NCBI GenBank assembly: GCA_000002435.2 | Contig: CM018791.1 | Length of the DNA stretch: 64,000 bases | Reading direction: 5' to 3' (one strand) | Source of the DNA: Giardia intestinalis | Lineage: Eukaryota | In this document: positions 1,215 through 61,109 of the stretch, in pieces | How positions within the stretch are numbered: position 1 is the first letter of the stretch | Layout: each line of letters begins with the position of its first letter | Notes under the pieces: generated by a model | Database searches by the model: none | The model's input: the letters and a program-made list of their open reading frames with translations, nothing else | Told to the model about the DNA's origin: nothing | Position numbers and translations under genes: made by a program

Positions 1215-1221
1215 CTTAGGT

Positions 1222-1228
1222 AGTGAAT
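1222..1228 (+). promoter_or_regulatory. Putative Giardia polyadenylation signal AGTGAAT (AGTRAAY class), 8 nt after the unit 1 stop.
   Basis: The motif 'cttaggtAGTGAATgct' recurs after every VSP unit. The Giardia poly(A) signal consensus is AGTRAAY, located within about 30 nt of the stop. Confidence 0.6.
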
Positions 1229-1236
1229 GCTGTACA

Positions 1237-1283
1237 GTGATAGTGATAGTGATAGTGCTATGTGGTGTGTGGGGTGATAGTGG
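1237..1283. repeat. Inter-VSP spacer microsatellite (GTGATA)3 followed by a GT-rich 'GTGTGTGGGGTGATAGTGGTGGTGTGGG' segment.
   Basis: Direct reading: gtgata gtgata gtgata gtg at 1237-1257, then gtgatagtgg at 1274-1283. The 6-nt period keeps one frame open ('VIVIVIV') while placing TGA and TAG in the other two. Confidence 0.85.
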
Positions 1284-1302
1284 TGGTGTGGGACTCCTCT
1301 TC

Positions 1303-3168: not shown

Positions 3169-3175
3169 CTTAGGT

Positions 3176-3182
3176 AGTGAAT
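3176..3182 (+). promoter_or_regulatory. Putative polyadenylation signal AGTGAAT after unit 2.
   Basis: Same conserved 3' flank as the other units. Confidence 0.6.
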
Positions 3183-3194
3183 GCTATACAATGT

Positions 3195-3250
3195 GTGATA
3201 GAGGGTGATAATGGGTGATAATGGGTGATAGGGTGATAGTGGAGTGTGAT
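3195..3250. repeat. Inter-VSP spacer ~10-nt repeat GTGATARNGG, five degenerate copies.
   Basis: gtgatagagg / gtgataatgg / gtgataatgg / gtgataggg / tgatagtgg / agtgtgat. Contains TGA/TAG in all three frames. TAG at 3237-3239 closes the body frame nine nt upstream of the GTG 'start'. Confidence 0.85.
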
Positions 3251-5066
3251 ATGCACAGCAGCCAGTAATGGAGTGTGCACTGAGTGTAATACAGATAGTC
3301 AGTACATATTCCAGAACAGGGCTACACCTCAGAAACCTGGTAGTGAGTGCATTCTGTGCTGGGACACGGTGGGAGATGGCGCGACAAAGGGAGTAGAGAA
3401 CTGCGCCACATGTACAGCGCCAGCTAGTAGTCCAGGAGCTGCCACGTGCGCTGAGTGCAAGGCAGGGTACTATAAAGAGAATAACGAATGCAAACCATGC
3501 CAGGAGAACTGTGCCACATGTACCGGGGCCGGTCAGAATCAGTGTTCATCTTGTAAAGCGGGCTTCTATCTGAAGACTGACAAGTCATGCTCAGAAACCT
3601 GCGATAATAACCAGTACTCCAACCCAAGCACCGGCAAGTGCACAGCCTGTAGTGATGCAGAAGCGGGGATAGCTGATTGCGACACATGCACATACGATAC
3701 GACGCTGCAGAAGCCGAAGTGCACAGCCTGTGGTAGCAGTGGGAAAAAGGTGAAGACGGCCATCGACGGCACCACGACATGTGTTACTGTTACATCCGAT
3801 TGCGTAGACGAGAATCACTTCAAGGCAGATGATGACTCAGCTTGTTATCTATGTAGTGATACAACAGGAACAGACCCAAATAAAGGAGTGGCTAATTGTG
3901 CAACCTGTACTGCAGCACAACAATGCACTAAGTGCCTTCCGGGCTTCTTTAAGACTAGTGCTACAGCTTGTGATGCTTGTGGTGATAACTGTGCCACATG
4001 TTCTGTTGCTGGTGATCCAAATAAGTGTGAAACCTGCAAGACTGGATACTTCTTGGTAACTACTACAGATCCACAGGGGAAGAAGTGTGTCCCCTGTGAC
4101 AGTACAACAGATGGTGGCCGCGAAGGCTGCAGTGTCTGCTCTAGCAACGGTGGATTCAAGTGCACTGAATGTAAGCCCAACTATAAGAAGCAGTCCAATG
4201 GTGATGCGGGGGATGACTATACATGTGTGAAGACCTGCGAGGACCCCACGGCTTGTGGTGGTACTTCTGGCGCCTGTGATGCCATCGTAATCGACAACAC
4301 AGGGAAGGAGCTTCACTACTGTTCTTACTGTGGAAAGGACAGTGAGTTCCCTATTGATGGTATATGTAATAGTGATAAAGGAACTAATCAATGTAATCAA
4401 GGTGTATGTACATCATGTACTACGGGGTACTTTATGTACATGAATGGTTGTTACAAGGTGACAGAGGTGCCGGGTAAGTCCATGTGCACAAAGGCAGGTG
4501 ATGGTGTCTGCACAGAGGCGGCAGCTGGGTACTTCATCCCTCCCTCGCCCACCAAGGACAAGCAGTCTGTCCTCTCCTGTGGGAACCCCCTTGGGGTCGA
4601 GCTGGCTGGTCAGAAGGCATACGTAGGAGTAGATGGCTGCTCCCAGTGTAAAGCACCAGTAGCTCTGACAACAGTTGGTATGGCTGCCGCTGTCTGTACC
4701 TCCTGTGACAATAGTAAGAAGCCCAACAGGGATGGCAGTGGGTGCTTCACATGTACCGTTAGTGGATGCTCGCACTGCAACAGGGATGACATGTGCGAGG
4801 CATGCAGTAGTGGTAAGAAGGTGAGCCCTGGAAGGAAGTCATGCGTGGATAGCTGCCCCAGCAACTCCACTGACACCGACTCTGTCTGTGTGTGCAACGA
4901 TGGATACAGCCCTGACAGCAGTGGGACCTCCTGTGCGTCCTCTGGCACCAACAGGAGCGGGCTCTCCACGGGGGCCATCGCGGGCATCTCCGTGGCTGTG
5001 GTCGTTGTCGTGGGGGGCCTCGTGGGCTTCCTCTGCTGGTGGTTCATATGTAGAGGGAAGGCGTAG
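3246..5066 (+). CDS. VSP unit 3. There is no ATG; the ORF-track start is a GTG. No signal peptide; ends in CRGKA. Possible silent cassette or pseudogene.
   Basis: Positions 3246-3248 are GTG. A TAG at 3237-3239, within the GTGATA spacer, closes the frame immediately upstream. None of the five ATGs in the spacer is in the body frame, and each meets a stop within 6-16 codons. The first in-frame ATG is about 1.2 kb downstream ('GYFMYMNGCYKV'). CXXC-rich. Conserved 'CEDPTACGGTSGACDAIVID...HYCSYCG' core. TM helix plus CRGKA, TAG at 5064-5066. Confidence 0.8.
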   Translation: MICTAASNGVCTECNTDSQYIFQNRATPQKPGSECILCWDTVGDGATKGVENCATCTAPASSPGAATCAECKAGYYKENNECKPCQENCATCTGAGQNQCSSCKAGFYLKTDKSCSETCDNNQYSNPSTGKCTACSDAEAGIADCDTCTYDTTLQKPKCTACGSSGKKVKTAIDGTTTCVTVTSDCVDENHFKADDDSACYLCSDTTGTDPNKGVANCATCTAAQQCTKCLPGFFKTSATACDACGDNCATCSVAGDPNKCETCKTGYFLVTTTDPQGKKCVPCDSTTDGGREGCSVCSSNGGFKCTECKPNYKKQSNGDAGDDYTCVKTCEDPTACGGTSGACDAIVIDNTGKELHYCSYCGKDSEFPIDGICNSDKGTNQCNQGVCTSCTTGYFMYMNGCYKVTEVPGKSMCTKAGDGVCTEAAAGYFIPPSPTKDKQSVLSCGNPLGVELAGQKAYVGVDGCSQCKAPVALTTVGMAAAVCTSCDNSKKPNRDGSGCFTCTVSGCSHCNRDDMCEACSSGKKVSPGRKSCVDSCPSNSTDTDSVCVCNDGYSPDSSGTSCASSGTNRSGLSTGAIAGISVAVVVVVGGLVGFLCWWFICRGKA

Positions 5067-5076
5067 GTACTTAGGT

Positions 5077-5083
5077 AGTGAAT
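5077..5083 (+). promoter_or_regulatory. Putative polyadenylation signal AGTGAAT after unit 3.
   Basis: Same conserved 3' flank. Confidence 0.6.
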
Positions 5084-5094
5084 GCTGTACAATG

Positions 5095-5152
5095 TGTGAT
5101 AGAAGGTGATAGTGGGTGATAATGGGTGATAGAGGGTGATAGTGGAGTGTGA
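5095..5152. repeat. Inter-VSP spacer GTGATARNGG-type repeat.
   Basis: gtgatagaaggtgatagtgggtgataatgggtgatagagggtgatagtggagtgtgat. Same architecture as 3195-3250. Confidence 0.85.
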
Positions 5153-6870
5153 TATGCACAAAGGCTGAGGGAGGAGTGTGCACTGCTTGTAAGGCAGATA
5201 ACGGCCTGTTCAAGAACCCGGCTGCAGCACCGAAGCCTGGTAGTGAGTGCATACTGTGCTCTGATATCAAGGGAGCAGATGGATATACGGGGGTGGCTAA
5301 CTGCGCACAGTGTACCAAGTCAGACAGTAGTCCAGGAGCAGCCACGTGTAGTACCTGCAGAGATGGATACTACATGGACTCTCAGGCATGTGTCAAATGT
5401 AATGACGCTTGTCTGACCTGCGATGGAAGTGGTCCGAATCAGTGTACATCGTGCCCAGAGGGGAAGTACCTGAAGACTGACAAGTCATGCGTGAATAATA
5501 ATGGATGCACTGGAAACACTTATGCTGACCCTGTGACAATGACCTGCAAGGATTCTGCAATAACTGATTGCACCACGTGTGAGTACAATGCGACCGTCAG
5601 TAAGCCCCAGTGCACCGCCTGTAATAACAATAAGAAGGTGAAGACGGCCATCGACGGCACCACGACATGTGTTACTGTTACATCCGATTGCGTAGACGAG
5701 AATCACTTCAAGGCAGATGATGACTCAGCTTGTTATCTATGTAGTGATACAACAGGAACAGACCCAAATAAAGGAGTGGCTAATTGTGCAACCTGTACTG
5801 CAGCACAACAATGCACTAAGTGCCTTCCGGGCTTCTTTAAGACTAGTGCTACAGCTTGTGATGCTTGTGGTGATAACTGTGCCACATGTTCTGTTGCTGG
5901 TGATCCAAATAAGTGTGAAACCTGCAAGACTGGATACTTCTTAGTAACTACTACAGATCAACAGGGGAAGAAGTGCGTCCCATGCGATAGCGTAGACGAT
6001 AAGGGTCGCGAAGGCTGCAGTGTCTGCTCTAACAACGGTGCTTTCAAGTGCACTGACTGTAAGCCTAACTATCGCAAGGAGGGCAGTACTGGCTCTGTCA
6101 CATGCACCAAGATCTGTGAAGATGATACTGCCTGTGGAGGAACTTCTGGTGCCTGCGATGCAATAGTGATTGATGATAAGGGTGTAGAGCATCATTATTG
6201 CTCATACTGTGGAGAAGCTAATACGTATCCTATAGATGGGAAGTGTAATAGTGCTAAAGCAAATAATCAATGTGATCAAGGTGTATGTACACAATGCACT
6301 AACAACTACTTCTTGTATATGGGAGGTTGTTACAAGGTTGATACAGTACCTGGACAACATATGTGCAAGACAGCAGCCAACGGTGTCTGTACTGCTGTTA
6401 ATGCCAACAATAGGTACTTCATAGTCCCTGGGGCAACCAATCAGAATCAGTCTGTATTGGCATGTAGCAACTCCCTTGGCACACTAGTAGGCACTGGTGA
6501 TACCTCTAAGGCATATGTGGGGGTAGATGGCTGTTCGGCATGTACGGCCCCAGCAGCTCTGTCTGATGGTGGTATGACTGCCGCTGTGTGTACCTCCTGT
6601 GACAGTGGTAAGGTGCCCAACAAGGACGGCAGTGGGTGTGTGACATGCTCTGTGGGTGATTGTAAGAGCTGTGTGATGGATAATATATGTGAAGAGTGCA
6701 ACAGTGGTTTCAGCATAGACAGCAGTGGGGCCTCCTGTGTGTCTATGAGTACCAACAGGAGCGGGCTCTCCACGGGGGCCATCGCGGGGATCTCCGTCGC
6801 TGTGGTCGTTGTCGTGGGGGGCCTCGTGGGCTTCCTCTGCTGGTGGTTCATATGTAGAGGGAAGGCATGA
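5149..6870 (+). CDS. VSP unit 4, the most divergent copy. There is no ATG; the ORF-track start is a GTG. No signal peptide; ends in CRGKA.
   Basis: Positions 5149-5151 are GTG. The frame is open to a TGA at 6868-6870. Its C-terminal cysteine module is distinct ('CVTCSVGDCKSCVMDNICEECNSGFSIDSSGASCVSMSTNRSGLSTG...') but the TM helix and CRGKA tail are the same. The 5' half is shared with unit 7. Confidence 0.8.
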   Translation: MICTKAEGGVCTACKADNGLFKNPAAAPKPGSECILCSDIKGADGYTGVANCAQCTKSDSSPGAATCSTCRDGYYMDSQACVKCNDACLTCDGSGPNQCTSCPEGKYLKTDKSCVNNNGCTGNTYADPVTMTCKDSAITDCTTCEYNATVSKPQCTACNNNKKVKTAIDGTTTCVTVTSDCVDENHFKADDDSACYLCSDTTGTDPNKGVANCATCTAAQQCTKCLPGFFKTSATACDACGDNCATCSVAGDPNKCETCKTGYFLVTTTDQQGKKCVPCDSVDDKGREGCSVCSNNGAFKCTDCKPNYRKEGSTGSVTCTKICEDDTACGGTSGACDAIVIDDKGVEHHYCSYCGEANTYPIDGKCNSAKANNQCDQGVCTQCTNNYFLYMGGCYKVDTVPGQHMCKTAANGVCTAVNANNRYFIVPGATNQNQSVLACSNSLGTLVGTGDTSKAYVGVDGCSACTAPAALSDGGMTAAVCTSCDSGKVPNKDGSGCVTCSVGDCKSCVMDNICEECNSGFSIDSSGASCVSMSTNRSGLSTGAIAGISVAVVVVVGGLVGFLCWWFICRGKA

Positions 6871-6877
6871 CTCAGGT

Positions 6878-6884
6878 AGTGAAT
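6878..6884 (+). promoter_or_regulatory. Putative polyadenylation signal AGTGAAT after unit 4.
   Basis: Same conserved 3' flank ('ctcaggtagtgaat'). Confidence 0.6.
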
Positions 6885-6890
6885 GCTATA

Positions 6891-6950
6891 CAATGTGTGA
6901 TAATGGGTAATAGAGGGTGATAGTGTGATAGTGATAGTGGAGTGTGATAT
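6891..6950. repeat. Inter-VSP spacer GTGATA-type repeat (degenerate 10-nt and 6-7-nt copies).
   Basis: gtgtgataatgggtaatagagggtgatagtgtgatagtgatagtggagtgtgat. Confidence 0.8.
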
Positions 6951-8791
6951 GCACAAAGGCCAGTAGTGGACTGTGCACTGCTTGTAAGACAGATAACAAG
7001 TACATATTCCAGAACAGGGCAGACAAGGTGACTCCTGGTGGGGAGTGCATCTTGTGCTCTGATATCAAGGGAGCGAATGAGAACAAAGGAGTGGCCAACT
7101 GCCTCAAGTGCACGGCGCCAGCTAGTAGTCCAGGACCTGCCACGTGTACTGAGTGCAAGGCTGGGTACGTTAAGGATAGCGTTTCTAATACGTGTAAGAA
7201 GTGCGGAGAGGGCTGCTCAGAGAGTAATCAAAATCAATGCTCGGCATGCGTTGAGGGGAAGTACCTGAAGGGTGATAACACTTGTGTAGAGGCTAGTGGA
7301 TGCGGTGCTGGTAACTATGCAGACCCGACAACAGGCCAATGTAAGGCATGTGATCCCGACATAGCTGGGTGCACCGCATGTGAATATAATGATGCCACGG
7401 GGAAGCCAAGGTGCACCAACTGCGGGACCAATAAGACCCCCAGGACGACCCTTGATGGGACCTCGACCTGTGTGACAAAAGACTACGCTGGATGTAAAGG
7501 CGCTGACGGGGCCCTATTTATGAAGGAGGACAAAACATGTGTTTTATGCAGTACCGTTTCAGCTGGAGCCGATCCAAATGACCAGGGCATTGCCGGGTGT
7601 AAGAAGTGTACCAAGGACTCGGCGACACCGCCAACCTGCTCGGAGTGCCTCGACGGATATTACAATAGCGCAACTGGTGGTAGTGGTACGGCTACATGTG
7701 AAGCTTGTGGTGATAATTGTGCCACCTGTGCTAAGGATACAAAAGACCAATGCATGACCTGTAAGCCCGGGTTCTTCATGAAAGGTAGTGGTCCTGGCAC
7801 ATGCGTCCCCTGTGATGACCAAACAGATGGAGTGCCTGGCTGTGCAACGTGCACCTTCTCTAGCTCGTTGACCTGCAACTCCTGTAAGCCCAACTACAAG
7901 CAGAGTGGTACCGGTCCTTTTACATGCACCAAGACTTGTGAAGACCCCACTGCCTGCGGGGGCACTTCTGGTGCCTGCGATGCCATGATAATTGATGATC
8001 AGGGCACCACAAAGCACTACTGTTCCTACTGTGGAGAGACCAATAAGATACCAATTGATGGGAAGTGTGTTGATAGTGGTAGTATAAATGGTAATACTTG
8101 TGCTAAAGGTGTATGTACACAGTGTGCTCAAGGATACTTCTTATACATGGGAGGCTGTTATAAGGTAGCAAGTCCACCCGGTAACCTCATGTGCACTGAA
8201 GCAACAACAGCTGGTGTCTGTGATACACCCAATGCCAATAATAAGTACTTCGTAGTCCCAGAAGCAAAGCCTACTCAACAGTCTGTGTTGGCTTGTGGTA
8301 ACCCCCTGGGCACACTAGTAGGCACTGATAGTACCGCTAAGGCATATGTGGGGGTGGATGGCTGCTCCCAGTGTACAGCCCCAACAGCTCCATCTGAGGG
8401 TGGCATGACTGCCGCCACGTGCACAGCGTGTACCAACAACAACAAGCCCAACCTGGCTGGGAGCGGGTGCTTCCCATGTACCGTTAGTGGATGCTCGCAC
8501 TGCAACAGGGATGACATGTGCGAGGCATGCAGTAGTGGTAAGAAGGTGAGCCCTGGAAGGAAGTCATGCGTGGATAGCTGCCCCAGCAACTCCACTGATG
8601 ATAACTCTGTCTGTGTGTGCAACGATGGATACAGCCCTGACAGCAGTGGGACCTCCTGTGTGTCCTCTGGCGCCAACAGGAGCGGCCTCAGCACAGGGGC
8701 CATCGCGGGGATCGCCGTCGCCGTGGTCGTCGTTGTGGGGGGCCTCGTGGGCTTCCTCTGCTGGTGGTTCATATGTAGAGGGAAGGCGTGA
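6944..8791 (+). CDS. VSP unit 5. There is no ATG; the ORF-track start is a GTG. No signal peptide; ends in CRGKA.
   Basis: Positions 6944-6946 are GTG. TGA at 8789-8791. CXXC-rich with a GGCYK motif. The C-terminal 100 aa are nearly identical to the other units. The 3' end plus the following spacer are identical to the unit 1 to unit 2 junction. Confidence 0.8.
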   Translation: MICTKASSGLCTACKTDNKYIFQNRADKVTPGGECILCSDIKGANENKGVANCLKCTAPASSPGPATCTECKAGYVKDSVSNTCKKCGEGCSESNQNQCSACVEGKYLKGDNTCVEASGCGAGNYADPTTGQCKACDPDIAGCTACEYNDATGKPRCTNCGTNKTPRTTLDGTSTCVTKDYAGCKGADGALFMKEDKTCVLCSTVSAGADPNDQGIAGCKKCTKDSATPPTCSECLDGYYNSATGGSGTATCEACGDNCATCAKDTKDQCMTCKPGFFMKGSGPGTCVPCDDQTDGVPGCATCTFSSSLTCNSCKPNYKQSGTGPFTCTKTCEDPTACGGTSGACDAMIIDDQGTTKHYCSYCGETNKIPIDGKCVDSGSINGNTCAKGVCTQCAQGYFLYMGGCYKVASPPGNLMCTEATTAGVCDTPNANNKYFVVPEAKPTQQSVLACGNPLGTLVGTDSTAKAYVGVDGCSQCTAPTAPSEGGMTAATCTACTNNNKPNLAGSGCFPCTVSGCSHCNRDDMCEACSSGKKVSPGRKSCVDSCPSNSTDDNSVCVCNDGYSPDSSGTSCVSSGANRSGLSTGAIAGIAVAVVVVVGGLVGFLCWWFICRGKA

Positions 8792-8798
8792 CTTAGGT

Positions 8799-8805
8799 AG
8801 TGAAT
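8799..8805 (+). promoter_or_regulatory. Putative polyadenylation signal AGTGAAT after unit 5.
   Basis: Same conserved 3' flank. Confidence 0.6.
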
Positions 8806-8813
8806 GCTGTACA

Positions 8814-8860
8814 GTGATAGTGATAGTGATAGTGCTATGTGGTGTGTGGGGTGATAGTGG
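8814..8860. repeat. Inter-VSP spacer (GTGATA)3 plus a GT-rich segment, identical to 1237-1283.
   Basis: The whole 88-nt junction 8792-8879 is identical to 1215-1302. Confidence 0.85.
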
Positions 8861-8879
8861 TGGTGTGGGACTCCTCTTC

Positions 8880-10748
8880 ATGGGCGGGTGCTACAAGGCA
8901 GGACAAGATCCTGGCAGTGAGATATGCACAGCAGCCAGTAACGGAGTATGCACTGCTTGTAATACAAAGAACGGCCTGTTCAAGAACCCAGTTACACCTC
9001 AGAAGCCTGGTAGTGAGTGCATCCTCTGCTGGGACACGGTGGGAGATGGCGCGACGAAGGGAGTAGAGAACTGCGCACAGTGTCAGGCACCACAGAGTGC
9101 AGGAGCAGCTACATGCACTGCCTGTCAAGATGGATACTATAAGAACGCTCAGACATGTGAGAAGTGTGATCAGTCCTGTCTGACCTGTGAGACTACAGAG
9201 ACCCAGTGTACCTCTTGTAAGGGAAATACGTTCCTGAAGGATAATGCATGCGTGAATAGTGATGGATGCACTGGAAACACTTATGCTGACCCTGTGACAA
9301 TGACCTGCAAGGCGTCTGCAATAACTGATTGCACCACGTGTGAGTACAACCCGGCAACTGGGGGCCCAAAGTGCACGGCATGTAATGGAGCTAAGATAGT
9401 CAAGGAAGAGGCCGACGGGACGACTACGTGTATAGACGCCGGCACCTGCACTCAAAGCGGAGCAACTGGTGAGAACTTCTTGAGCGACGGAGATGCCGAA
9501 TGCATACTATGTAGCAACGATAGCAGCAAGACAGATAATAACAAGGGAAGCCCCGGTTGCGGGACCTGCAGCAAGAACGGCGCTAAGCCAGAATGCAAGA
9601 CGTGCCTCGATGGCTACTACGACAGCGGGAACGGTAACCCCGCCGTATGCGTTGCGTGCGCTGGCGATTGCGGAAAGTGCGGGCCAGGAGGCGCTATAGA
9701 TACCTGTGAAAAGTGCAAGCCAGGGTTTTTCTTAAAGAATGACGGGGCCAAGAAGTGCGTCCCCTGCGACGATCCGACAGATGGAGTGCCCGGCTGTGCA
9801 ACGTGCACCTTCTCTAACTCGTTTACTTGTGACTCTTGTAAGGTGAACTACCAAAAGAAGGTAGGGGCTGGAGGAGCGGTCACGTGTGAGAAGACTTGTG
9901 AAGACCCTACTGCTTGTGGTGGTACTTCTGGCGCCTGCGATGCAATAGTGATCGACAACACAGGGAAGGAGCTTCACTACTGTTCATACTGTGGAAAGGA
10001 CAGTGAGTTCCCCATTAATGGACTATGTGTTGGGAATGAAAAGAAAGAGGGGAATAACTGTAACAGTCATACATGTACATCATGTACTACAGGATACTTC
10101 TTGTACATGGGAGGCTGCTATAAGTATGATACAGAACCAGGAAGCCTCATGTGCAAGACCGCTGAAGGGGGCAAGTGCACAGTTGCCAATGATGGTAATA
10201 AGTACTTCGTAGTACCAGAGGCACAGACCACTGATCGGTCCGTGTTGGCCTGTGGCAACCCCCTTGGCACACTAGTAGGCACTGATAGTACCTCTAAGGC
10301 ATACGTGGGGGTACTCAACTGTTCACAGTGTACAGCCCCAGCAGCTCCATCTGAGGGTGGCATGACTGCCGCCACGTGCACAGCGTGTACCAACAACAAC
10401 AAGCCCAACCTGGCTGGGAGCGGGTGCTTCCCATGTACCGTTAGTGGATGCTCGCACTGCAACAGGGATGACATGTGCGAGGCATGCAGTAGTGGTAAGA
10501 AGGTGAGCCCTGGAAGGAAGTCATGCGTGGATAGCTGCCCCAGCAACTCCACTGACACCGACTCTGTCTGTGTGTGCAACGATGGATACAGCCCTGACAG
10601 CAGTGGGACCTCCTGTGCGTCCTCTGGCACCAACAGGAGCGGGCTCTCCACGGGGGCCATCGCGGGGATCTCCGTCGCCGTGGTCGTTGTCGTGGGGGGC
10701 CTCGTGGGCTTCCTCTGCTGGTGGTTCATATGTAGAGGGAAGGCGTGA
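8880..10748 (+). CDS. VSP unit 6, a near-duplicate of unit 2. The first in-frame ATG lies inside the GGCY motif and there is no signal peptide.
   Basis: ATG at 8880-8882 giving 'MGGCYKAGQDPGSEICTAAS...'. The remainder is identical to unit 2 at the protein level apart from one 3-nt indel with adjacent substitutions near the start. It lies 7577-7580 nt downstream of unit 2. TGA at 10746-10748. The ORF-track start at 8598 is an out-of-frame read-through of unit 5's 3' end. Confidence 0.8.
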   Translation: MGGCYKAGQDPGSEICTAASNGVCTACNTKNGLFKNPVTPQKPGSECILCWDTVGDGATKGVENCAQCQAPQSAGAATCTACQDGYYKNAQTCEKCDQSCLTCETTETQCTSCKGNTFLKDNACVNSDGCTGNTYADPVTMTCKASAITDCTTCEYNPATGGPKCTACNGAKIVKEEADGTTTCIDAGTCTQSGATGENFLSDGDAECILCSNDSSKTDNNKGSPGCGTCSKNGAKPECKTCLDGYYDSGNGNPAVCVACAGDCGKCGPGGAIDTCEKCKPGFFLKNDGAKKCVPCDDPTDGVPGCATCTFSNSFTCDSCKVNYQKKVGAGGAVTCEKTCEDPTACGGTSGACDAIVIDNTGKELHYCSYCGKDSEFPINGLCVGNEKKEGNNCNSHTCTSCTTGYFLYMGGCYKYDTEPGSLMCKTAEGGKCTVANDGNKYFVVPEAQTTDRSVLACGNPLGTLVGTDSTSKAYVGVLNCSQCTAPAAPSEGGMTAATCTACTNNNKPNLAGSGCFPCTVSGCSHCNRDDMCEACSSGKKVSPGRKSCVDSCPSNSTDTDSVCVCNDGYSPDSSGTSCASSGTNRSGLSTGAIAGISVAVVVVVGGLVGFLCWWFICRGKA

Positions 10749-10755
10749 CTTAGGT

Positions 10756-10762
10756 AGTGAAT
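10756..10762 (+). promoter_or_regulatory. Putative polyadenylation signal AGTGAAT after unit 6.
   Basis: Same conserved 3' flank. Confidence 0.6.
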
Positions 10763-10774
10763 GCTGTACAATGT

Positions 10775-10830
10775 GTGATAGAAGGTGATAGTGGGTGATA
10801 ATGGGTGATAGAGGGTGATAGTGGAGTGTG
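10775..10830. repeat. Inter-VSP spacer GTGATARNGG-type repeat.
   Basis: gtgatagaaggtgatagtgggtgataatgggtgatagagggtgatagtggagtgtgat, identical to the 5095-5152 spacer. Confidence 0.85.
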
Positions 10831-12633
10831 ATATGCACAAAGGCTGAGGGAGGAGTGTGCACTGCTTGTAAGGCAGATAACGGCCTGTTCAAGAACCCAG
10901 TTACACCTCAGAAGCCTGGTGGGGAGTGCATACTGTGCTCTGATATCAAGGGAGCAGATGGATATACGGGGGTGGCTAACTGCGCACAGTGTACCAAGTC
11001 AGACAGTAGTCCAGGAGCAGCCACGTGTAGTACCTGCAGAGATGGATACTACATGGACTCTCAGGCATGTGTCAAATGTAATGACGCTTGTCTGACCTGC
11101 GATGGAAGTGGTCCGAATCAGTGTACATCGTGCCCAGAGGGGAAGTACCTGAAGACTGACAAGTCATGCGTGAATAATAATGGATGCACTGGAAACACTT
11201 ATGCTGACCCTGTGACAATGACCTGCAAGGATTCTGCAATAACTGATTGCACCACGTGTGAGTACAATGCGACCGTCAGTAAGCCCCAGTGCACCGCCTG
11301 TAATAACAATAAGAAGGTGAAGACGGCCATCGACGGCACCACGACATGTGTTACTGTTACATCCGATTGCGTAGACGAGAATCACTTCAAGGCAGATGAT
11401 GACTCAGCTTGTTATCTATGTAGTGATACAACAGGAACAGACCCAAATAAAGGAGTGGCTAATTGTGCAACCTGTACTGCAGCACAACAATGCACTAAGT
11501 GCCTTCCGGGCTTCTTTAAGACTAGTGCTACAGCTTGTGATGCTTGTGGTGATAACTGTGCCACATGTTCTGTTGCTGGTGATCCAAATAAGTGTGAAAC
11601 CTGCAAGACTGGATACTTCTTGGTAACTACTACAGATCCACAGGGGAAGAAGTGTGTCCCCTGTGACAGTACAACAGATGGTGGCCGCGAAGGCTGCAGT
11701 GTCTGCTCTAGCAACGGTGGATTCAAGTGCACTGAATGTAAGCCCAACTATAAGAAGCAGTCCAATGGTGATGCGGGGGATGACTATACATGTGTGAAGA
11801 CCTGCGAGGACCCCACGGCTTGTGGTGGTACTTCTGGCGCCTGTGATGCCATCGTAATCGACAACACAGGGAAGGAGCTTCACTACTGTTCTTACTGTGG
11901 AAAGGACAGTGAGTTCCCTATTGATGGTATATGTAATAGTGATAAAGGAACTAATCAATGTAATCAAGGTGTATGTACATCATGTACTACGGGGTACTTT
12001 ATGTACATGAATGGTTGTTACAAGGTGACAGAGGTGCCGGGTAAGTCCATGTGCACAAAGGCAGGTGATGGTGTCTGCACAGAGGCGGCAGCTGGGTACT
12101 TCATCCCTCCCTCGCCCACCAAGGACAAGCAGTCTGTCCTCTCCTGTGGGAACCCCCTTGGGGTCGAGCTGGCTGGCCAGAAGGCATACGTAGGAGTAGA
12201 TGGCTGTTCACAGTGTACAGCACCAAAACAGCTAGAGGCTCCTGGCATGACTCCTGCTATATGTACCTCTTGTGACAGTAGTAAGAAGCCCAACAGGGAT
12301 GGCAGTGGGTGCTTCCCATGTACCGTTAGTGGATGCTCGCACTGTGATATGGACAACATGTGCGAGGCATGCAGTAGTGGTAAGAAGGTGAGCCCTGGAA
12401 GGAAGTCATGCGTGGATAGCTGCCCCAGCAACTCCACTGATGATAACTCTGTCTGTGTGTGCAACGATGGATATAGCCCTGACAGCAGTGGGACCTCCTG
12501 TGTGTCCTCTGGCGCCAACAGGAGCGGCCTCAGCACAGGGGCCATCGCGGGGATCTCCGTCGCTGTGGTCGTCGTCGTGGGGGGCCTCGTCGGCTTCCTC
12601 TGCTGGTGGTTCGTGTGCAGGGGGAAGGCGTAG
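10828..12633 (+). CDS. VSP unit 7, the terminal unit. It is a chimera of the unit 4 5' half and the unit 3 3' half. There is no ATG; the ORF-track start is a GTG. Ends in CRGKA.
   Basis: Positions 10828-10830 are GTG. The N-terminal ~270 aa match unit 4 ('MICTKAEGGVCTACKADNGLFKNP...'). From 'DPQGKKCVPCDSTTDGGREGCSVCSSNGGFKCTECKPNYKKQSNGDAGDDY' onward it matches unit 3. TAG at 12631-12633. Its 3' flank differs from the others: a duplicated 'acttag', AGTAAAC instead of AGTGAAT, and no GTGATA repeat. Confidence 0.8.
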   Translation: MICTKAEGGVCTACKADNGLFKNPVTPQKPGGECILCSDIKGADGYTGVANCAQCTKSDSSPGAATCSTCRDGYYMDSQACVKCNDACLTCDGSGPNQCTSCPEGKYLKTDKSCVNNNGCTGNTYADPVTMTCKDSAITDCTTCEYNATVSKPQCTACNNNKKVKTAIDGTTTCVTVTSDCVDENHFKADDDSACYLCSDTTGTDPNKGVANCATCTAAQQCTKCLPGFFKTSATACDACGDNCATCSVAGDPNKCETCKTGYFLVTTTDPQGKKCVPCDSTTDGGREGCSVCSSNGGFKCTECKPNYKKQSNGDAGDDYTCVKTCEDPTACGGTSGACDAIVIDNTGKELHYCSYCGKDSEFPIDGICNSDKGTNQCNQGVCTSCTTGYFMYMNGCYKVTEVPGKSMCTKAGDGVCTEAAAGYFIPPSPTKDKQSVLSCGNPLGVELAGQKAYVGVDGCSQCTAPKQLEAPGMTPAICTSCDSSKKPNRDGSGCFPCTVSGCSHCDMDNMCEACSSGKKVSPGRKSCVDSCPSNSTDDNSVCVCNDGYSPDSSGTSCVSSGANRSGLSTGAIAGISVAVVVVVGGLVGFLCWWFVCRGKA

Positions 12634-12653
12634 ACTTAGCTGTGTACTTAGGT

Positions 12654-12660
12654 AGTAAAC
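12654..12660 (+). promoter_or_regulatory. Putative polyadenylation signal AGTAAAC (the canonical Giardia form) after the terminal unit 7.
   Basis: 'tacttaggtAGTAAACgc'. The flank differs from the internal junctions and marks the array boundary. Confidence 0.6.
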
Positions 12661-15600
12661 GCATCGCCTATTGCACCTGTCCACTCCATGGCCGTTGCGC
12701 CGTCATTCCATAAAACCGTTGGACCACCTGTCTCCGAGCATCCGTCGAATCCTGCGGTAGGACCGCGCCTCCATGTTTTGCCGTGCCCGCTTCTGTATGG
12801 CAATGAGCACCCCCTACTATTGTACAACTATTCCACCCAGAGGCAGGCGACATACATGGATCTTGACTCTAATATGCGCCTCTGTGCACCACCTCTCGCA
12901 CCTTAGCAGCCCGACTACAACATCGTGGGGTCTGGGCACTCCCAAGCGGCGTGTGTCGGGCACCTGATCGACTATGCACAAGGCCCGTGGCAGTCAAGGC
13001 GTGCAGCGCTGGACTATCATCTTAAGTACCCGGCGCATCCAAAGAGACGATAGCTGGAAGAACGGCTAGCCACACTTTTCAACCATTGGTGTCTTGCAGC
13101 ATCTCCAACATAAGCCTCTAGGCAGCGGTTCGCAGTGATACATGAGCTACAGGGGAGCTTGCCGCCAAACATGATCTGTGTGCATAGACCGGTTACCGTT
13201 ACTTGATGAAGTAGACGCTTCTCAGTTCGGGCACGTCTGGTCCGCGTGATCTCCTTGCCCGGGGCTCTTTTCTATAGCTATTACCGTGTGCGGGGTCCAA
13301 GAGGGCAGCCATCGATTTTCAAATGCGCGCTTGGCTCTGCCTTTCCCGGGATGCGCAGTGCTAAGCGTTGACGAACCACGCTCTGGCCACAGGATTTCCT
13401 TCGTGGGAAGGAAGCTCCTCCACAGTCCTGTAATCACATCCTAGAAGTGCCTGACTCCAGCTCCAATGTCATTATGGGTGACTCAGCCATGGAATGAATA
13501 CCACAGGACATCATGGTTAATGACATATGCTGCGGATCTTCCGACGGTTCTGCTGAGCCCTGTGCCGCTATCCGCAAACATCTACCCCAGGGATATAGAA
13601 ATCAGAGTCTGCAGAGGGATCCCTGGGGCTGTGAGCAGGGTGGTCTTCAGGGACGACCGGCGGCATCCACGGACATGGGCGCTCCCAACTGTGGTCGGCT
13701 CGAAGGCAGTGCTTGTTGGCTCATGCAAGGGCGATGCGGCTCTCCGGTAGGTCCCAGTGTCCGGCTGCATAATCTCTGTTAGATTCCTGGACGGGCTGAG
13801 ATTTTAGCCACGGCATCTGCAGGCAAGCCCGCACTGTGGCCTCCTCCAGCAGGAGCCAATCTGTCTCATCTCCGATGCCACCCTTCGCCGGGCCTTCGGT
13901 GGGACACCCATACACGTCAGCCATTGCACAATATACAGTATGAATCTCTAACAGTCTCTGACACATCGCACAGCTCCCTCAGCCGCCAGTTCGGCCATCC
14001 TACGGCGGAAACTCCTTAACTCGTTCCGAATTAAGAAGAGAAGCGCCGTCAGGCCCCGCCAGTACTGCGATCGGAGACGTCGTGGGAACACGGGGTGCCG
14101 AACCTTCTGCCGTTGACTGTCAGCCCCCGCACACGGGGATTCCGGCTGCATCCCACTACGCACTCTCGTGGAGCGACAGCGCAGACACTAAAGGGTGGCT
14201 TGGGGTCGTTCACTGGGCGTCGGCCACCTCATCGAGACCCCCGCAAATTGCTCCCGAGGAGTCTGCCGCCGACATGCGTTATAGGTGGGCACTTAGTGCG
14301 CTCTGCGAGGACAGGCCGGCCAGTATGAAGGACCTCACAGACAAAGAGCCTGAGGGCCTATAGCGGACTTCTACAGGCCAGTTCAACAACAGAGACGTCG
14401 GATGGCAGGCGCTAACAAGGATTGCTCGGCTCGACCCGCTAACGTAGATCCTCCAGATTGCATGCGCAAGACTGTTGCACTTACAACGGAGACCGACCTG
14501 GGTCGAGGCTCACATAAGGACAGCAACGTCGTGGATCATGGAAGCAACACGTGCATGGCGTTTATCCGTGCCTCCTGTCCATCCAGTGCTTGGGCCAGAC
14601 GCTGACCCTGGCAGTCAAGCAGAGAATGCACAGCAGCCGGCCCCAGACTGGGCGACCCAGAACTGCTTGTAAAATGGTCAACATGTCGCTGGGCCAGTTG
14701 TGGAGTGCGAAACTAAGAACGAGGCTCCTCCATGCTGCTGGTCAGCTCGGTCTCCAGGGAGCAGCTCCAAAAGAGACTACACGACGAACGAGGGCCAGCA
14801 AGGGGCCAGAAGGAGCAGTCGTTCGACAAATGAGGAAGAGCCAGAGATGCAACAACATGCAGGCGGCAGAGAAGAAGCAGGCACACCTAGCTCCGGTCAC
14901 TTTTCCACTTATTGGGTGCTGAGGGATGCACTCAGTAAGGACAGCCTGTACCAGCAACGTCGCAGCTTCAGCCTGAGCACTCCCTCCCGGGCTTCTTGTA
15001 CACTGCTGGAGAGAGCGTCCACTTGGGCCTGCTAGGAGCAGACCCGCTCGATGAGGCCCTGGGACCTTCTCGTACTCTTCGCTGCCATCGGTGTATCCAG
15101 GTAGCGTACCGGTACTTCGTGGCACCAGTGGGGAATGCTCTTCCTATCTACGCCTAGTTCCTGGAATCTCCTGCCAGTGAAGGACGCTTTGAACATAGGC
15201 TCACACGGAGCTTAGGGCGTCTGTGTGTCCGCCCAGCAGGTAGCACAGCACCAGGCGGGCAGTCGTCATGCCGCGCTGGATGCCAGCTTCTTTAATCAAG
15301 GAGCCATTCGACGCGAAGCTCTTCCGGATACACGGCTCGCTGGACGAGCTGGCTCAGCAGACCCGCCTGCAGGGGACCTCGTTGGGCATGGCTGGCGGTC
15401 GTCGGCTCCTGAGCAGGGGAGCTCATCCATTTCTCGGCGGTGGGCAGTGCATCTCCTCCGGCGCACCCACTCGTGCCAGGAGGCGTGTACAAGACGATCA
15501 GAGATGTAGTTGTGCCTGATGGCCACATCCAGGATGCAGACATGGAGGTAATAGTATACCTGTCAAGACAGCACACGACTTCCCTACAGCTCCTTGGCGT

Positions 15601-16542
15601 ATCGGCGCACGCAGGCAGAGGGCCAGCCAGGGTGAATGTCGTGGCCGGCCAGCTGCGCATCAGCCCTAGCTCACGGCCCAGAGAGCATTCAGTCGCCTGT
15701 TACCGGACGGGCCTGTCTGGTAGATCGTTGGCCCAGACCGCGGTGTTCGAGTCGTCTGCGCACACGGGAGAGACCTGCCTTCTCCTGCTGTGTGTGGTCT
15801 CTTCAACGATGTGTAAGCTGCGTCTGGTGGGCCCTGCGCTGTGCCGTGGTTGAGCATGCTGCACGCTCTAGGCATGACGGTCTCGCCACTGACCAGGACT
15901 TCAACTATTAGCTGCTCCTACCGACCACTCTTCGATGCCCCTCGACGACCACCAGACAAGCCGAGCTCTCCAGTCTTCAGCCCTTACTGGGGTATGTATC
16001 AGCGCACCCAGGCACGCCCCCGTAGCCCGCAGGGGGGAAGCATGGCACGCATGCGAAGGAAGTGGGCGGCCCGAGAAGATCCTGGCCCGTCTGGAGCGAG
16101 AGGGTGCCGGGCCCAGGAACGACCCCGGGCGGGAGGGCGAGGACGAGGCACCCCGGCGTGCGCGGGGGCAGAAGCGCAGAGACCGCGCCCGGAGCCACAA
16201 AGACCGGCCCCCCAACGGGCGGCACCAGCGGAGGCGCGGCGCAACCAAGAACGCAGGGGGGCGAAGAGTTTGGTCAGAGTGTACAATCGTGTATGTGAGG
16301 AAGCTACAAACGGAGATATCAAAGGTAGAAAGAGTGGCCCAGTTATATACCCTCATTGGGCCCCAATTTATCAGAACACTAGCTCTATAACTGGCATCAG
16401 CTTGTTACTCCATGCATGTACGCAGTACTGCAAGAGTGTTACTAAGAATTGGCAAACCTGTCCATGATACAGTGGAAATTGTACCTTCTAAAACGGCTCA
16501 GAAAGGTGATCATTCCAAGACTTCTTACCATGTGTTGCCTAC
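12661..16542. other. GC-rich (~57-60%) non-repetitive region of about 3.9 kb with no convincing ORF. Candidates are an ORF desert, a degenerate element, or the edge of the array.
   Basis: Only short overlapping ORFs (208 aa or less) on all six strands, with a length distribution like random sequence. No CXXC, ankyrin or RT motifs were noticed. The composition is unlike the flanking Giardia coding DNA. Confidence 0.5.
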
Positions 16543-17421
16543 CTAGCTTTCTGCAGGAGAAGGGGGGCAGATATTAGCTGGCGGCTCTACCAGGATCAGG
16601 GAAATGTACGCCATTTGAGCATTAGTGTTGAAGGGAATCGTCGTCGCTTGCGGATTGAGCAAGACAAACACTGGAGGGTACTGTATGGGGTTTTGGACAA
16701 GAGCATGGATGGGAGTGTCAGAATGGGAAGACGTGGTGTCAGTCCTCGCGTCATCTGGTACGGTGTTGGGTTCAGAAGAAAGGGTCGATGCTTCTAGTGG
16801 GAGCTTGTGTGAACTCAAAGGATAGAGATCTTCTTTGCTGATGGAGGTCGGTTGAAGATCAGGGGTTGAGTTAGACACGTGGCCCGCGGCTAGTGGAGAA
16901 GTAGCTCTGGGAGAGTCAGGTGTGTGCTCTTTGTGTTTTGATCCGCTCATCTTTCGTCGTCTTACTGGACGCTGAACATTGCATTCTGTGAGGACACTCC
17001 GTATGCAACGGCTATTGAGCATGTTGTTGTACGTCATTCGCAATTCTTGACGCGAATACCTTGTCCCAAAGCGCTTATGTATCTCCTTATAGAGTTGCTC
17101 ATCCAGAACCCGCCGGTGCTTGATCCAGTTGATGAGCATGTTGCGGATCTCTTCGCGGTCGTCATCAGTCATCTTAATGGTCAGGATATGCCGTGAGTGC
17201 GTCTCGCGGTACCAGTGATAGATCCTTTTCCTGTCCGCACCGACCTCCTTGGCGATTCTCTGCCAGTCGATGGGTGTCTTAACCACATACGCATAGAGTC
17301 TGCACGGGCTGGCAACAAGGTCGTCGACTGTCTCTTCCAACTGTTTTATGTCTATTACTTCCTTCGCCAGCCGATGCAGCACACCGGACTGGACCTCTAT
17401 CGTCAGACAAGGACTTACCAT
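16543..17421 (-). CDS. Myb/SANT-like DNA-binding domain protein (hypothetical).
   Basis: ATG confirmed (cat at 17419-17421). Two Myb-like helix-turn-helix repeats: 'WQRIAKEVGADRKRIYHWYRETH' (compare Myb R2 'IAKHLKGRIGKQCRERWHNHL') and 'IHKRFGTRYSRQELRMTYNNML' (R3-like). S/T/P-rich low-complexity C-terminus. Confidence 0.5.
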   Translation of the reverse strand: MVSPCLTIEVQSGVLHRLAKEVIDIKQLEETVDDLVASPCRLYAYVVKTPIDWQRIAKEVGADRKRIYHWYRETHSRHILTIKMTDDDREEIRNMLINWIKHRRVLDEQLYKEIHKRFGTRYSRQELRMTYNNMLNSRCIRSVLTECNVQRPVRRRKMSGSKHKEHTPDSPRATSPLAAGHVSNSTPDLQPTSISKEDLYPLSSHKLPLEASTLSSEPNTVPDDARTDTTSSHSDTPIHALVQNPIQYPPVFVLLNPQATTIPFNTNAQMAYISLILVEPPANICPPSPAES

Positions 17422-18166
17422 ATCACTACAAAATCAAAAATTTCAATTAAATGTACTAAATCAGTGATAGAATTCTGCTAAATACGCTAATCTATGTACT
17501 GATCAGCTTGAAGCTAACCATCCACGAGCTTTCTGAAACTCCTATGCTGATGGTGCGTAGACAAACTTAGCCATGATTGGTAGCATTTTCCATTAGCCAG
17601 ATAACCAACAGAGCCCTTCTAGCTTGTTTAATTATATATGAGCATTGCATGTAAAAAGAAACAGTTATGGACCGGAGCTTAAATTTACAAGTCTGTATGT
17701 ATGTTACAGTACTTGACCAGGTATGCATAATATAAAAGAGCCTTAGGAGTAAACATAGACTGCAACTGGTCATCACACCTCTTATAAACAGCGCAGCAAG
17801 CTTTTTCTAGTAGTGGGTTCTACGCAAAGTTAGCGTGTAGTGCTAATAGTGACACACTGAATGAGGAGAGGTAAACTGTAATAGGACCACGTGCCAGTAA
17901 GTATTTCATTCTATAGCTGAAAAAACCAGCTGAGTTACTATGATATAGCAATAGCATTACATTTCATTTTCCTGAGTGTAAGGGTTTAACGTTTAACGAT
18001 TTCAGTACGTTATCATAGACGATGCACAGTGAGTGAAGTATCAAGTAAAAAGAATCGAATAACAATACACGTTCCATCAGTGCAATTGTATCTCAAAAAC
18101 TATCATGAAAGTCATCATTGATGTGCGGTTGTAGTCGGTTTGTAAAAGTACTCCCTGAAACCGAGC

Positions 18167-61009: not shown

Positions 61010-61109
61010 TAGATCGGATAAACAAAAGTGTATTATTAGTTAGAGATGTCCAGGAGCGCAGATTTAGGCATAATTTCAGTTTAAATTGTCTGCGCAGATA
61101 AAGAAAGCC

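What the first reader, a model, noticed from the sequence alone, without database searches (positions are those of the whole stretch)
12661..16542. 3.9-kb GC-rich ORF desert directly abutting the VSP array
In a genome where genes elsewhere in this window are separated by 0-400 bp, this 3.9-kb stretch has no ORF longer than 208 codons on any strand. Its ORF-length spectrum looks random. GC is visibly higher than in the flanking DNA. No tandem or inverted repeats, VSP motifs, ankyrin repeats or RT motifs were found. Candidate explanations are a decayed retroelement or gene remnant (GilD-like), a recombination or breakpoint region bounding the array, a long non-coding transcript locus, foreign or mis-assembled DNA, or sequence not of native origin.
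Basis: seen in the sequence. Interest (0 to 1): 0.55.

Follow-up and report, generated by a model that had tools for sequence, protein, structure and literature searches.

The report
Giardia 5S rRNA locus beside VSPs
The "ORF desert" is real, native Giardia DNA, but it is not empty: it holds an already annotated 5S ribosomal RNA gene, a 2.2-kb spacer also found at a second 5S locus, and a leftover gene fragment, so it is an ordinary example of the gene-poor, GC-rich DNA known to flank VSP genes.

Summary
Window 12634-16542 has no coding signal. Its longest stop-free run is 216 codons, against 174±35 in shuffles. It shows no 3-base periodicity, no Pfam hit in any frame and no repeats. Its GC is 58%, against 28-47% for other intergenic DNA in the window.

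- **5S rRNA gene.** A full-length copy lies at 13987-14106 (+) (Rfam, 85 bits). The published WB-specific upstream AT-rich box sits at 13930-13945.
- **Duplicated segment.** 14054-16263 recurs at 86-96% identity next to the paralogous gene GL50803_61066, on independent scaffold L026.
- **Gene relic.** 16273-15980 (-) is a truncated copy of the last ~94 codons of GL50803_61066 (82/92 aa identical, same stop).

The window is G. intestinalis WB. Desert ORFs match 2007 WB protein records exactly, so foreign or mis-assembled DNA is excluded. A VSP-5S-(10241-family gene) arrangement also occurs in assemblage B.

Against isolate DH, identity falls from about 99% in the flanking genes to unalignable left of about 15250, which marks a synteny break.

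The left 1.3 kb (12689-13929) remains unassigned. Long, GC-rich, gene-poor VSP flanks and dispersed internal 5S genes are already published. Interest is low.

The parts
10828..12633 (+). Last VSP gene of a seven-member head-to-tail array (left boundary of the region)
   Evidence: 601-aa ORF ending CRGKA*. VSP repeat families have a period of about 1.9 kb.
12634..12688 (+). 3' flank of the VSP repeat unit
   Evidence: Repeat family D5 has its last copy at 12459-12688, so it extends 55 nt past the VSP stop.
12689..13929 (.). Unassigned GC-rich non-coding DNA (55-57% GC). It contains the deprecated ORF GL50803_107665 at 13721-13966 (-).
   Evidence: No periodicity and no Pfam hit. No similarity to any fetched locus or to the rest of the window, even with word size 7. 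The 81-aa ORF is an exact match to XP_001703921.1 of WB, so the DNA is native.
13930..13945 (+). AT-rich 'TATA-like' box upstream of the 5S gene (AATATACAGTATGAAT)
   Evidence: Matches all 16 positions of the consensus published for WB 5S genes at -58..-43 (PMC3369914). It is the only match in 64 kb, where 0.01 is expected.
13987..14106 (+). 5S ribosomal RNA gene, full length
   Evidence: Rfam RF00001: 85.3 bits (gathering score 38), E 9e-17, model positions 1-120 of 120. It differs at one aligned position from the 5S gene in assemblage B contig L023.
14054..16263 (.). Segment duplicated at the paralogous 5S / GL50803_61066 locus. The left end is a lower bound because scaffold L026 starts inside the 5S gene.
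   Evidence: L026 aligns at 95.9% (14054-14319), 93.8% (14306-15529) and 85.6% (15583-16263). The gene that follows in L026 is 98% identical to GL50803_0061066. Shared 31-mers end at 16263. ORF 14402-14605 equals GL50803_120652 and is identical in both loci.
15977..16273 (-). Truncated relic of the C-terminal ~94 codons (plus stop) of a GL50803_61066-type gene. This is the most GC-rich block.
   Evidence: tblastn of P0018 residues 176-269 hits window 16261-15980 at 89%, E 1e-38. BLASTP gives 82/92 identical with no gaps, ending at the last residue. 25 of 285 nt differ from the L026 gene end, split 10/5/10 by codon position.
16264..16542 (-). Unique 3' flank of GL50803_10241
   Evidence: Identical in WB-type Logan contigs. 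88-96% identical to DH.
16543..17421 (-). GL50803_0010241, hypothetical protein (right boundary)
   Evidence: Exact match to XP_001704738.1 / KAE8303326.1.

Best explanation
The region is a long intergenic spacer of Giardia intestinalis WB between a VSP array and gene GL50803_10241. Its one functional element is one of the 8-10 dispersed 5S rRNA genes, presumably transcribed by RNA polymerase III from the upstream AT-rich box.

The 2.2 kb downstream of the 5S gene is one copy of a segment that also follows the 5S gene next to the paralog GL50803_61066. That segment carried the last ~94 codons of the paralog with it.

The two protein genes are only about 45% identical, yet the non-coding DNA is 86-96% identical. 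The segment was therefore copied between the loci, by ectopic gene conversion or segmental duplication, long after the genes diverged.

The rest is unconstrained spacer of the kind that typically surrounds VSP genes. It encodes no protein.

Shown: the 5S gene, the box, the duplication, the relic, native origin, absence of coding signal, and the synteny break against DH.

Inferred: Pol III use of the box, the direction and timing of the copying, and lack of function of the spacer.
For: - 5S gene. Upstream box unique in the window.
- Native origin: three desert ORFs match WB records exactly (GL50803_107665, GL50803_120652 and the 62-aa ORF found on ENA scaffold L026). Dinucleotide odds ratios resemble the native genes. 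No plasmid, phage or E. coli match.
- Duplication: L026 aligns to 14054-16263 at 86-96% and then carries a gene 98% identical to GL50803_61066. GL50803_61066 is only about 45% identical to GL50803_10241.
- Relic.
- A further diverged copy in WB: GL50803_116271 is 79-86% identical to the frame 15844-16197.
- Short-read contigs: all WB-type Logan contigs approaching from the right stop at 16234, 16215, 16064 or 15998. The first two coincide with the rightmost stretch of 31-mers shared with the paralogous locus, 16215-16263. The other two lie close to the inner shared stretches.
- A similar arrangement in assemblage B: VSP-VSP-5S-(289-aa family member on the opposite strand) in contig L023.
- No coding or structural signal.
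- Literature: VSP-flanking intergenic regions have median 1280 and mean 2131 nt against a genome median of 79 nt, and VSP regions are richer in GC (bioRxiv 10.1101/2022.03.07.483299). Regions around VSPs are gene-poor with more allelic variation, and 5S genes are internal with 10 copies (PMC7000408).
Against: - The left 1.24 kb (12689-13929) matches nothing that could be fetched, so its origin is open.
- L026 comes from a metagenome assembly of a WB-like isolate, not from WB itself. The second copy in WB is inferred from the 98% gene match and from the WB protein records.
- L026 begins inside the 5S gene. Whether the duplication continues upstream of the 5S gene is unknown.
- The A2-type copy of the 61066 locus (L027) shows no 5S gene within 3.3 kb. 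5S linkage at that locus may therefore be specific to the A1 lineage.
- The assemblage-B family member in L023 is only 49% identical to GL50803_10241, so it may be a paralog rather than the ortholog.
- No expression data were available.
Confidence: 0.8

Rival explanations
1. The spacer is a functional recombination or boundary element. On this reading, 5S-associated GC-rich units act as ectopic-exchange hot spots that delimit VSP arrays and help reshuffle them.
For: The synteny break against DH lies inside the region, with an identity gradient from about 99% to unalignable. 2.2 kb is shared with another locus although the neighbouring genes are old paralogs. VSP-5S adjacency is also seen in assemblage B. 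High GC is compatible with GC-biased gene conversion (inference).
Against: Only two loci were seen. Two other family loci (L024, L025) have no 5S gene. No sequence motif, repeat or structure was found. The same data fit passive, neutral exchange between repeats.
Confidence: 0.1
2. The unassigned parts, above all 12689-13929 and 14107-15250, are remains of a decayed mobile element (GilD- or Genie-like) or of an old pseudogene that is too eroded to recognise.
For: GC of 55-60% resembles the Gil-type element in DH locus L016. Retrotransposon relics are reported between some VSP pairs.
Against: No reverse-transcriptase, endonuclease or other Pfam domain in six frames at E<=1. No tblastn hit with the DH reverse-transcriptase or ORF1-like ORFs. 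No nucleotide similarity to the DH element. No residual periodicity.
Confidence: 0.06
3. The region encodes a long non-coding or otherwise structured RNA beyond the 5S gene.
For: One 120-nt window (15721-15840, +) has folding z = -3.2. Giardia has many unannotated ncRNAs.
Against: The z-score distribution equals that of shuffles (mean +0.16, sd 1.04, 1 of 194 windows below -3). No Rfam hit other than 5S at E<=1. The Giardia ncRNA 3'-end motif CCTTYNHTHAA does not occur in the window. Nothing is conserved with assemblage B apart from 5S plus or minus 30 nt.
Confidence: 0.03
4. The region is foreign, contaminant, mis-assembled or artificially inserted DNA.
For: GC differs from the flanks. Short-read contigs break at its right edge.
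Against: Exact WB protein records from the independent 2007 assembly lie inside it. An independent ENA scaffold carries the paralogous copy of this segment, so the sequence family is genuine Giardia DNA. The Giardia-specific 5S gene and the WB-specific box are present. The contig breaks are explained by shared 31-mers. No plasmid, phage or E. coli match.
Confidence: 0.01

Closest known systems
Dispersed 5S rRNA genes of Giardia lamblia WB (GiardiaDB r0002...r0026; Feng et al. 2012, PMC3369914; Xu et al. 2020, PMC7000408)
   Same: Full-length 5S gene without the 15-bp insert of the one aberrant copy. It is not tandem, not linked to the 18S-5.8S-28S unit, and lies at an internal chromosome position. 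It carries the 16-nt AT-rich box at the published distance.
   Different: Nothing differs for the gene itself. The shared 2.2-kb downstream unit and the attached gene relic are not mentioned in the passages of those papers I read.
Gene-poor, GC-richer, allelically variable regions around VSP genes (Xu et al. 2020; bioRxiv 10.1101/2022.03.07.483299)
   Same: The region directly abuts a VSP array. The spacer is 3.9 kb (published mean for VSP flanks is 2.1 kb). GC is elevated. It contains deprecated small ORFs, and there is variation among isolates.
   Different: This spacer is longer than average. It can be partly decomposed into a 5S gene, a duplicated unit and a gene relic.
Segmental duplication and ectopic gene conversion between dispersed repeats, such as the nearly identical flanks of duplicated VSP pairs (Adam et al. 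2010, PMC2996952)
   Same: Near-identical non-coding DNA with an abrupt point of divergence (here at 16263). It is shared between loci whose neighbouring genes differ.
   Different: The unit here is attached to a 5S gene and a GL50803_10241/61066-family gene, not to a VSP pair. Identity is graded: 96% near the 5S gene and 86% at the far end.
GilM, GilT and GilD non-LTR retrotransposons of Giardia
   Same: GC-rich. A Gil-type element lies beyond the same gene in isolate DH (L016).
   Different: No reverse transcriptase and no protein or nucleotide similarity in the window region.

Membership tests
5S rRNA (Rfam RF00001) | Covariance-model score above the curated gathering threshold over the full model | tested here: met
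   85.3 bits against 38, model 1-120 of 120, E 9e-17
5S rRNA (Rfam RF00001) | Sequence conserved in a diverged relative while the flanks are not | tested here: met
   One mismatch to the 5S gene of assemblage B contig L023. Flanks beyond about 30 nt cannot be aligned.
Giardia WB 5S gene set (Feng et al. 2012) | 16-nt AT-rich box AA(T/C)A(C/T/A)(A/G)C(A/T)(G/A)(T/A)AT(G/T)(T/A)A(T/C) at about -58..-43 | tested here: met
   13930-13945, 16 of 16 positions, 42-57 nt upstream of the Rfam start. It is the single match in the window, where 0.01 is expected.
Giardia WB 5S gene set (Feng et al. 2012) | Transcription of this copy | not testable with these tools
   No expression data were available.
Dispersed repeat / segmental duplication | A second copy longer than 1 kb at high identity in a different genomic context | tested here: met
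   L026 shows 86-96% identity over 14054-16263 and is flanked by a gene 98% identical to GL50803_61066 instead of GL50803_10241. The second copy was seen in a WB-like metagenome scaffold, not in WB itself.
GL50803_10241/61066 gene family (relic) | Alignable coding sequence of a family member | tested here: met
   Only the C-terminal 94 codons, 82/92 aa identical and ending at the same stop. The N-terminal 175 codons are absent, so it is a fragment and not a gene.
Non-LTR retrotransposon relic (GilD/GilM/GilT) | Reverse-transcriptase or endonuclease remnants, or similarity to a Gil element | tested here: not met
   Six-frame Pfam search gave 0 hits at E<=1. tblastn with DH RVT_1-containing ORFs gave no hit. 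blastn gave no hit.
VSP pseudogene | VSP domain (PF03302), CXXC repeats or a CRGKA tail in any frame | tested here: not met
   No Pfam hit. tblastn with the window's VSP ORFs gave only E>0.02 noise.
Giardia snoRNA/snRNA-type ncRNA genes (Hudson et al. 2012) | 3'-end processing motif CCTTYNHTHAA | tested here: not met
   0 matches in the whole window
VSP-flanking gene-poor region (Xu et al. 2020) | Adjacent to VSP genes, long gene-free spacer, raised GC | tested here: met
   Literature.
VSP-flanking gene-poor region (Xu et al. 2020) | Raised allelic sequence heterozygosity | tested here: inconclusive
   About 6% difference between the window and WB-type contigs L001, L002 and L005 within 16000-16270, against 0% in the adjacent 1.2 kb. 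These differences could instead reflect mixing of paralogous copies in short-read assemblies.

The most novel reading that the evidence does not exclude
All or most of the 8-10 dispersed 5S rRNA genes of assemblage A Giardia may sit in a common GC-rich unit of 2 kb or more. On this reading the unit is kept similar by ectopic gene conversion between chromosomal sites. It drags pieces of neighbouring genes along, such as the 61066-type relic. These exchange-prone units would preferentially mark the edges of VSP arrays and synteny breaks. Concerted evolution of a dispersed rRNA family would then be mechanistically linked to the plasticity of the antigen-gene repertoire.
Probability: 0.15. Interest if true: 0.45.

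Novelty: already known. Interest (0 to 1): 0.15.

Why it matters
It matters little beyond housekeeping. The region illustrates two published features of the Giardia WB genome: dispersed internal 5S genes, and long GC-rich gene-poor VSP flanks.

The one small addition is this. The DNA downstream of this 5S gene is shared at 86-96% with the 5S locus next to a paralogous gene, and it includes a 3' fragment of that paralog. This points to recent ectopic exchange between dispersed 5S loci and explains why short-read assemblies break here.

If the pattern were general to all 5S copies, it would be a modest case of concerted evolution of non-tandem rRNA genes at VSP array borders.

Tried and rejected
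1. A homology search with all desert ORFs of at least 70 aa joined by runs of X returned nothing. It is not a valid negative, because it missed P0030, which a plain query found.
2. Exact look-ups of 29 desert ORFs: only three are on record.
3. Look-ups of GL50803_61066 (P0018) and GL50803_116271 (P0031) found no contig on record. The WB reference itself could not be fetched.
4. Contigs for the right-flank genes were all under 10 kb and end at the repeat.
5. The P15 ortholog contig ends 490 nt past the gene. The P15 contig for the 61066 ortholog ends inside the gene.
6. Paralog loci L024 and L025 carry no 5S gene. L027 carries none either.
7. A JGI metagenome scan with a 41-nt 5S pattern gave 0 hits.
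8. The telomere repeat (TAGGG)3 is absent from the region.
9. The bacterial-type promoter and terminator scan gave no more than the shuffles.
10. The RNA folding z-score scan showed nothing beyond chance.
11. phmmer of the longest ORF against 1.84 billion representatives found only GL50803_116271, another spurious ORF on a diverged copy.
12. The left 1.3 kb matched nothing, even with word size 7.
Full report
**Identity of the window.** The 292-aa ORF at 16543-17421 (-) is an exact match to hypothetical protein GL50803_0010241 of Giardia intestinalis WB C6. That record lists a longest contig of 1,973,847 bp. To the left lie seven head-to-tail VSP genes with a period of about 1.9 kb. The last one (10828-12633) ends in CRGKA*. 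The finding therefore concerns the spacer between a VSP linear array and GL50803_10241.

**Check of the observation.** Between 12634 and 16542 the longest stop-free stretch is 216 codons (208 from a start codon).
- Mononucleotide shuffles of the same DNA give 174±35 codons, up to 326. This 3.9-kb stretch is the most ORF-poor in the window.
- Three-base periodicity is 1.3-2.9, against 8-16 in the VSP genes and 4-9 in the genes to the right.
- GC is 58.2%. Genes in the window have 45-54% GC, GC3 is 45-61%, and all other intergenic pieces but one have 28-47%.
- TRF and the repeat finder report nothing of note.
- Six-frame translations with stops masked give no Pfam hit at E<=1.
- tblastn with every ORF of at least 100 aa from the rest of the window, and from the DH locus including its ankyrin and RVT_1 ORFs, gives only noise left of 15945.

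The description is accurate. The conclusion that nothing is there is not.

- Rfam finds a complete 5S rRNA at 13987-14106 (+): 85.3 bits against a gathering score of 38, E 9e-17, model 1-120 of 120.
- Feng et al. (PMC3369914) report eight dispersed, non-tandem 5S genes in WB. They share a 16-nt AT-rich box at -58..-43 with consensus AA(T/C)A(C/T/A)(A/G)C(A/T)(G/A)(T/A)AT(G/T)(T/A)A(T/C).
- The window has AATATACAGTATGAAT at 13930-13945, which fits all 16 positions. It is the only match in 64 kb, where 0.01 is expected.
- Xu et al. (PMC7000408) annotate 10 5S genes in the current WB assembly and state that they lie internally on the chromosomes.
- This gene is therefore known and annotated.

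**Native origin.**
- ORF 13721-13966 (-) equals XP_001703921.1 (GL50803_107665). ORF 14402-14605 (+) equals XP_001703920.1 (GL50803_120652). Both come from the 2007 Sanger-based annotation.
- ORF 14847-15035 (+) is carried by an independent ENA scaffold.
- Dinucleotide odds ratios of the region (CG 0.76, TA 0.79, GC 1.09) resemble those of the native genes to the right (0.73, 0.80, 1.15).
- There is no match in plasmids, phages or E. coli genomes.
- Foreign or mis-assembled DNA is excluded.

The ENA scaffold L026 (3759 nt) aligns to the window as follows:

| Window coordinates | Identity to L026 |
|---|---|
| 14054-14319 | 95.9% |
| 14306-15529 | 93.8% |
| 15583-16263 | 85.6% |

- Beyond 16263, L026 does not continue into GL50803_10241. 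It carries a gene 98% identical to GL50803_0061066 (P0018).
- GL50803_0061066 is a paralog that shares only about 45% amino-acid identity with GL50803_10241.
- L026 begins inside the 5S gene and is exact over 14054-14103.
- Two loci therefore have the layout 5S gene, about 2.2 kb of GC-rich spacer, then a family gene on the opposite strand.
- The spacer is far more similar than the genes. It must have been copied between the loci long after the genes diverged.
- The 67-aa ORF GL50803_120652 is identical in both loci and appears twice in the WB 2007 proteome listing.
- A third, more diverged copy exists in WB. GL50803_116271 (P0031) is 79-86% identical to the frame 15844-16197.

- On the minus strand, 16273-15980 translates to PNSSPPCVLGCAAPPLVPPVGGPVFVAPGAVSALLPP...GYGGVPGCADTYPSKG*.
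- This aligns without gaps to residues 178-269 of GL50803_61066, the end of the protein, with 82/92 identical residues and the same stop.
- The first 175 codons are missing.
- Against the L026 gene end, 25 of 285 nt differ. By codon position the split is 10/5/10, with 7 synonymous and 12 non-synonymous codon changes. That pattern shows no clear third-position excess.
- This Pro/Gly/Ala-rich tail is the most GC-rich block of the region. It accounts for the 208-codon ORF on the opposite strand.

**Why short-read contigs stop here.**
- All WB-type Logan contigs that carry GL50803_10241 or its neighbour end at window 16234, 16215, 16064 or 15998.
- 31-mers shared between the window and L026 form four stretches at 16215-16263, 16162-16192, 16106-16158 and 16020-16057.
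- The ends at 16234 and 16215 fall on the first shared stretch. The ends at 16064 and 15998 lie close to the inner ones.
- The breaks are the signature of the repeat, not of a mis-join.
- Within 16000-16270 these contigs differ from the window at about 6% of sites, often carrying the DH allele. They are identical over the adjacent 1.2 kb. This fits either allelic variation or mixing of copies.

**Comparison with other isolates.** Against DH (assemblage A2, L016), identity changes along the window as follows:

| Window coordinates | Identity to DH |
|---|---|
| Genes right of 16600 | mostly 98-99.5% (three 200-nt bins at 93-95%) |
| 16201-16400 | 88% |
| 16001-16200 | 74% |
| 15201-16000 | 61-69% |
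| Left of about 15250 | None detectable |

- In DH the gene is followed by about 3 kb of other GC-rich gene-free DNA, an ankyrin gene and a reverse-transcriptase element. There is no 5S gene.
- The WB spacer 15253-16263 is closer to the A2 copy of the 61066 locus (L027, 81%) than to its positional counterpart in DH.
- Within A2 the two loci are only 64-77% alike. This suggests that the exchange is recent in the A1 lineage.
- In assemblage B (GS_B contig AHHH01000245, L023) the order is VSP, VSP, 5S (88 bits, one mismatch), then a 289-aa family member on the opposite strand. The total spacer there is only 1.6 kb, and nothing is alignable except the 5S gene plus or minus 30 nt.
- That family member is only 49% identical to GL50803_10241, so orthology is uncertain.
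- Two other family loci (L024 in P15, L025 in GS_B) lack a 5S gene.

**Other tests for function.**
- No other Rfam family reaches E<=1. No tRNA is present.
- The Giardia ncRNA 3'-end motif CCTTYNHTHAA (PMC3510501) does not occur in the window.
- No telomere repeats were found.
- Folding z-scores of 194 windows have mean +0.16 and sd 1.04, with one window below -3.

**Literature context.**
- Regions around VSPs are gene-poor and show more allelic variation (Xu et al. 2020).
- VSP-flanking intergenic regions have median 1280 nt and mean 2131 nt against a genome median of 79 nt. VSP regions are richer in GC, and many adjacent small 'hypothetical genes' are not real (bioRxiv 10.1101/2022.03.07.483299).
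- Synteny between isolates breaks at multigene-family regions.
- The region is a textbook instance of these patterns.

**What remains open.**
- The 1.24 kb between the VSP flank and the 5S box (12689-13929) matches nothing available to me. It may belong to the same repeat family, because L026 is cut inside the 5S gene. It may also be old decayed sequence.
- The cause of the high GC is only partly explained by the relic. GC-biased gene conversion is a reasonable but untested inference.

**Verdict.** This is a real feature and it is correctly located. However, it is an ordinary VSP-flanking spacer holding an annotated 5S rRNA gene, a unit duplicated between two 5S loci, and a short gene relic. 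It is already known in kind, and interest is low.

Noticed in passing
L023 4637-5029 (GS_B contig AHHH01000245.1): Directly after the intact 5S gene (4469-4588) come about 4.5 tandem copies, period 110 nt, of the 3' half of 5S plus a 47-nt spacer. The annotated 'hypothetical protein GSB_155013' (4267-5118) is an ORF read through the 5S gene and these repeats, so it is almost certainly spurious.
   Followed up: partly
window 1-12633: Seven head-to-tail VSP genes with a period of about 1.9 kb and spacers of 73-82 bp. Long stretches are 96-100% identical between non-adjacent members, as in a linear VSP array with internal recombination.
   Followed up: no
window 61010-61747: A second unusually GC-rich (54%) and long (738 bp) intergenic stretch, whereas other spacers have 28-47% GC.
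   Followed up: no
window 15721-15840 (+): This window has the lowest folding z-score in the region (-3.17). It is 1 of 194 windows, is probably chance, and lies in the part shared with the 61066 locus.
   Followed up: partly
L016 13960-20879 (DH contig AHGT01000031.1): In isolate DH the gene orthologous to GL50803_10241 is followed by 3 kb of gene-free GC-rich DNA, an ankyrin-repeat gene and a GC-rich RVT_1 (Gil-type) retroelement. WB has a 5S gene and a VSP array there instead, so this is a clear A1/A2 structural difference.
   Followed up: partly
window 16000-16270 versus L001, L002 and L005: WB-type short-read contigs are identical to the window over 16270-17500 but differ at about 6% of sites in this block. 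At those sites they often share the DH allele. This suggests allelic heterozygosity or copy mixing at the relic.
   Followed up: partly
L026 263-347: The paralogous copy has about 83 extra nucleotides relative to the window near 14306-14319, where the alignment pieces overlap. This looks like a small local duplication or insertion.
   Followed up: no
L024 9229-9301 (P15 contig ACVC01000055.1): A tRNA gene lies about 700 nt upstream of another member of the GL50803_10241 family (GLP15_4271). That locus also has 2-3 kb gene-free gaps.
   Followed up: no
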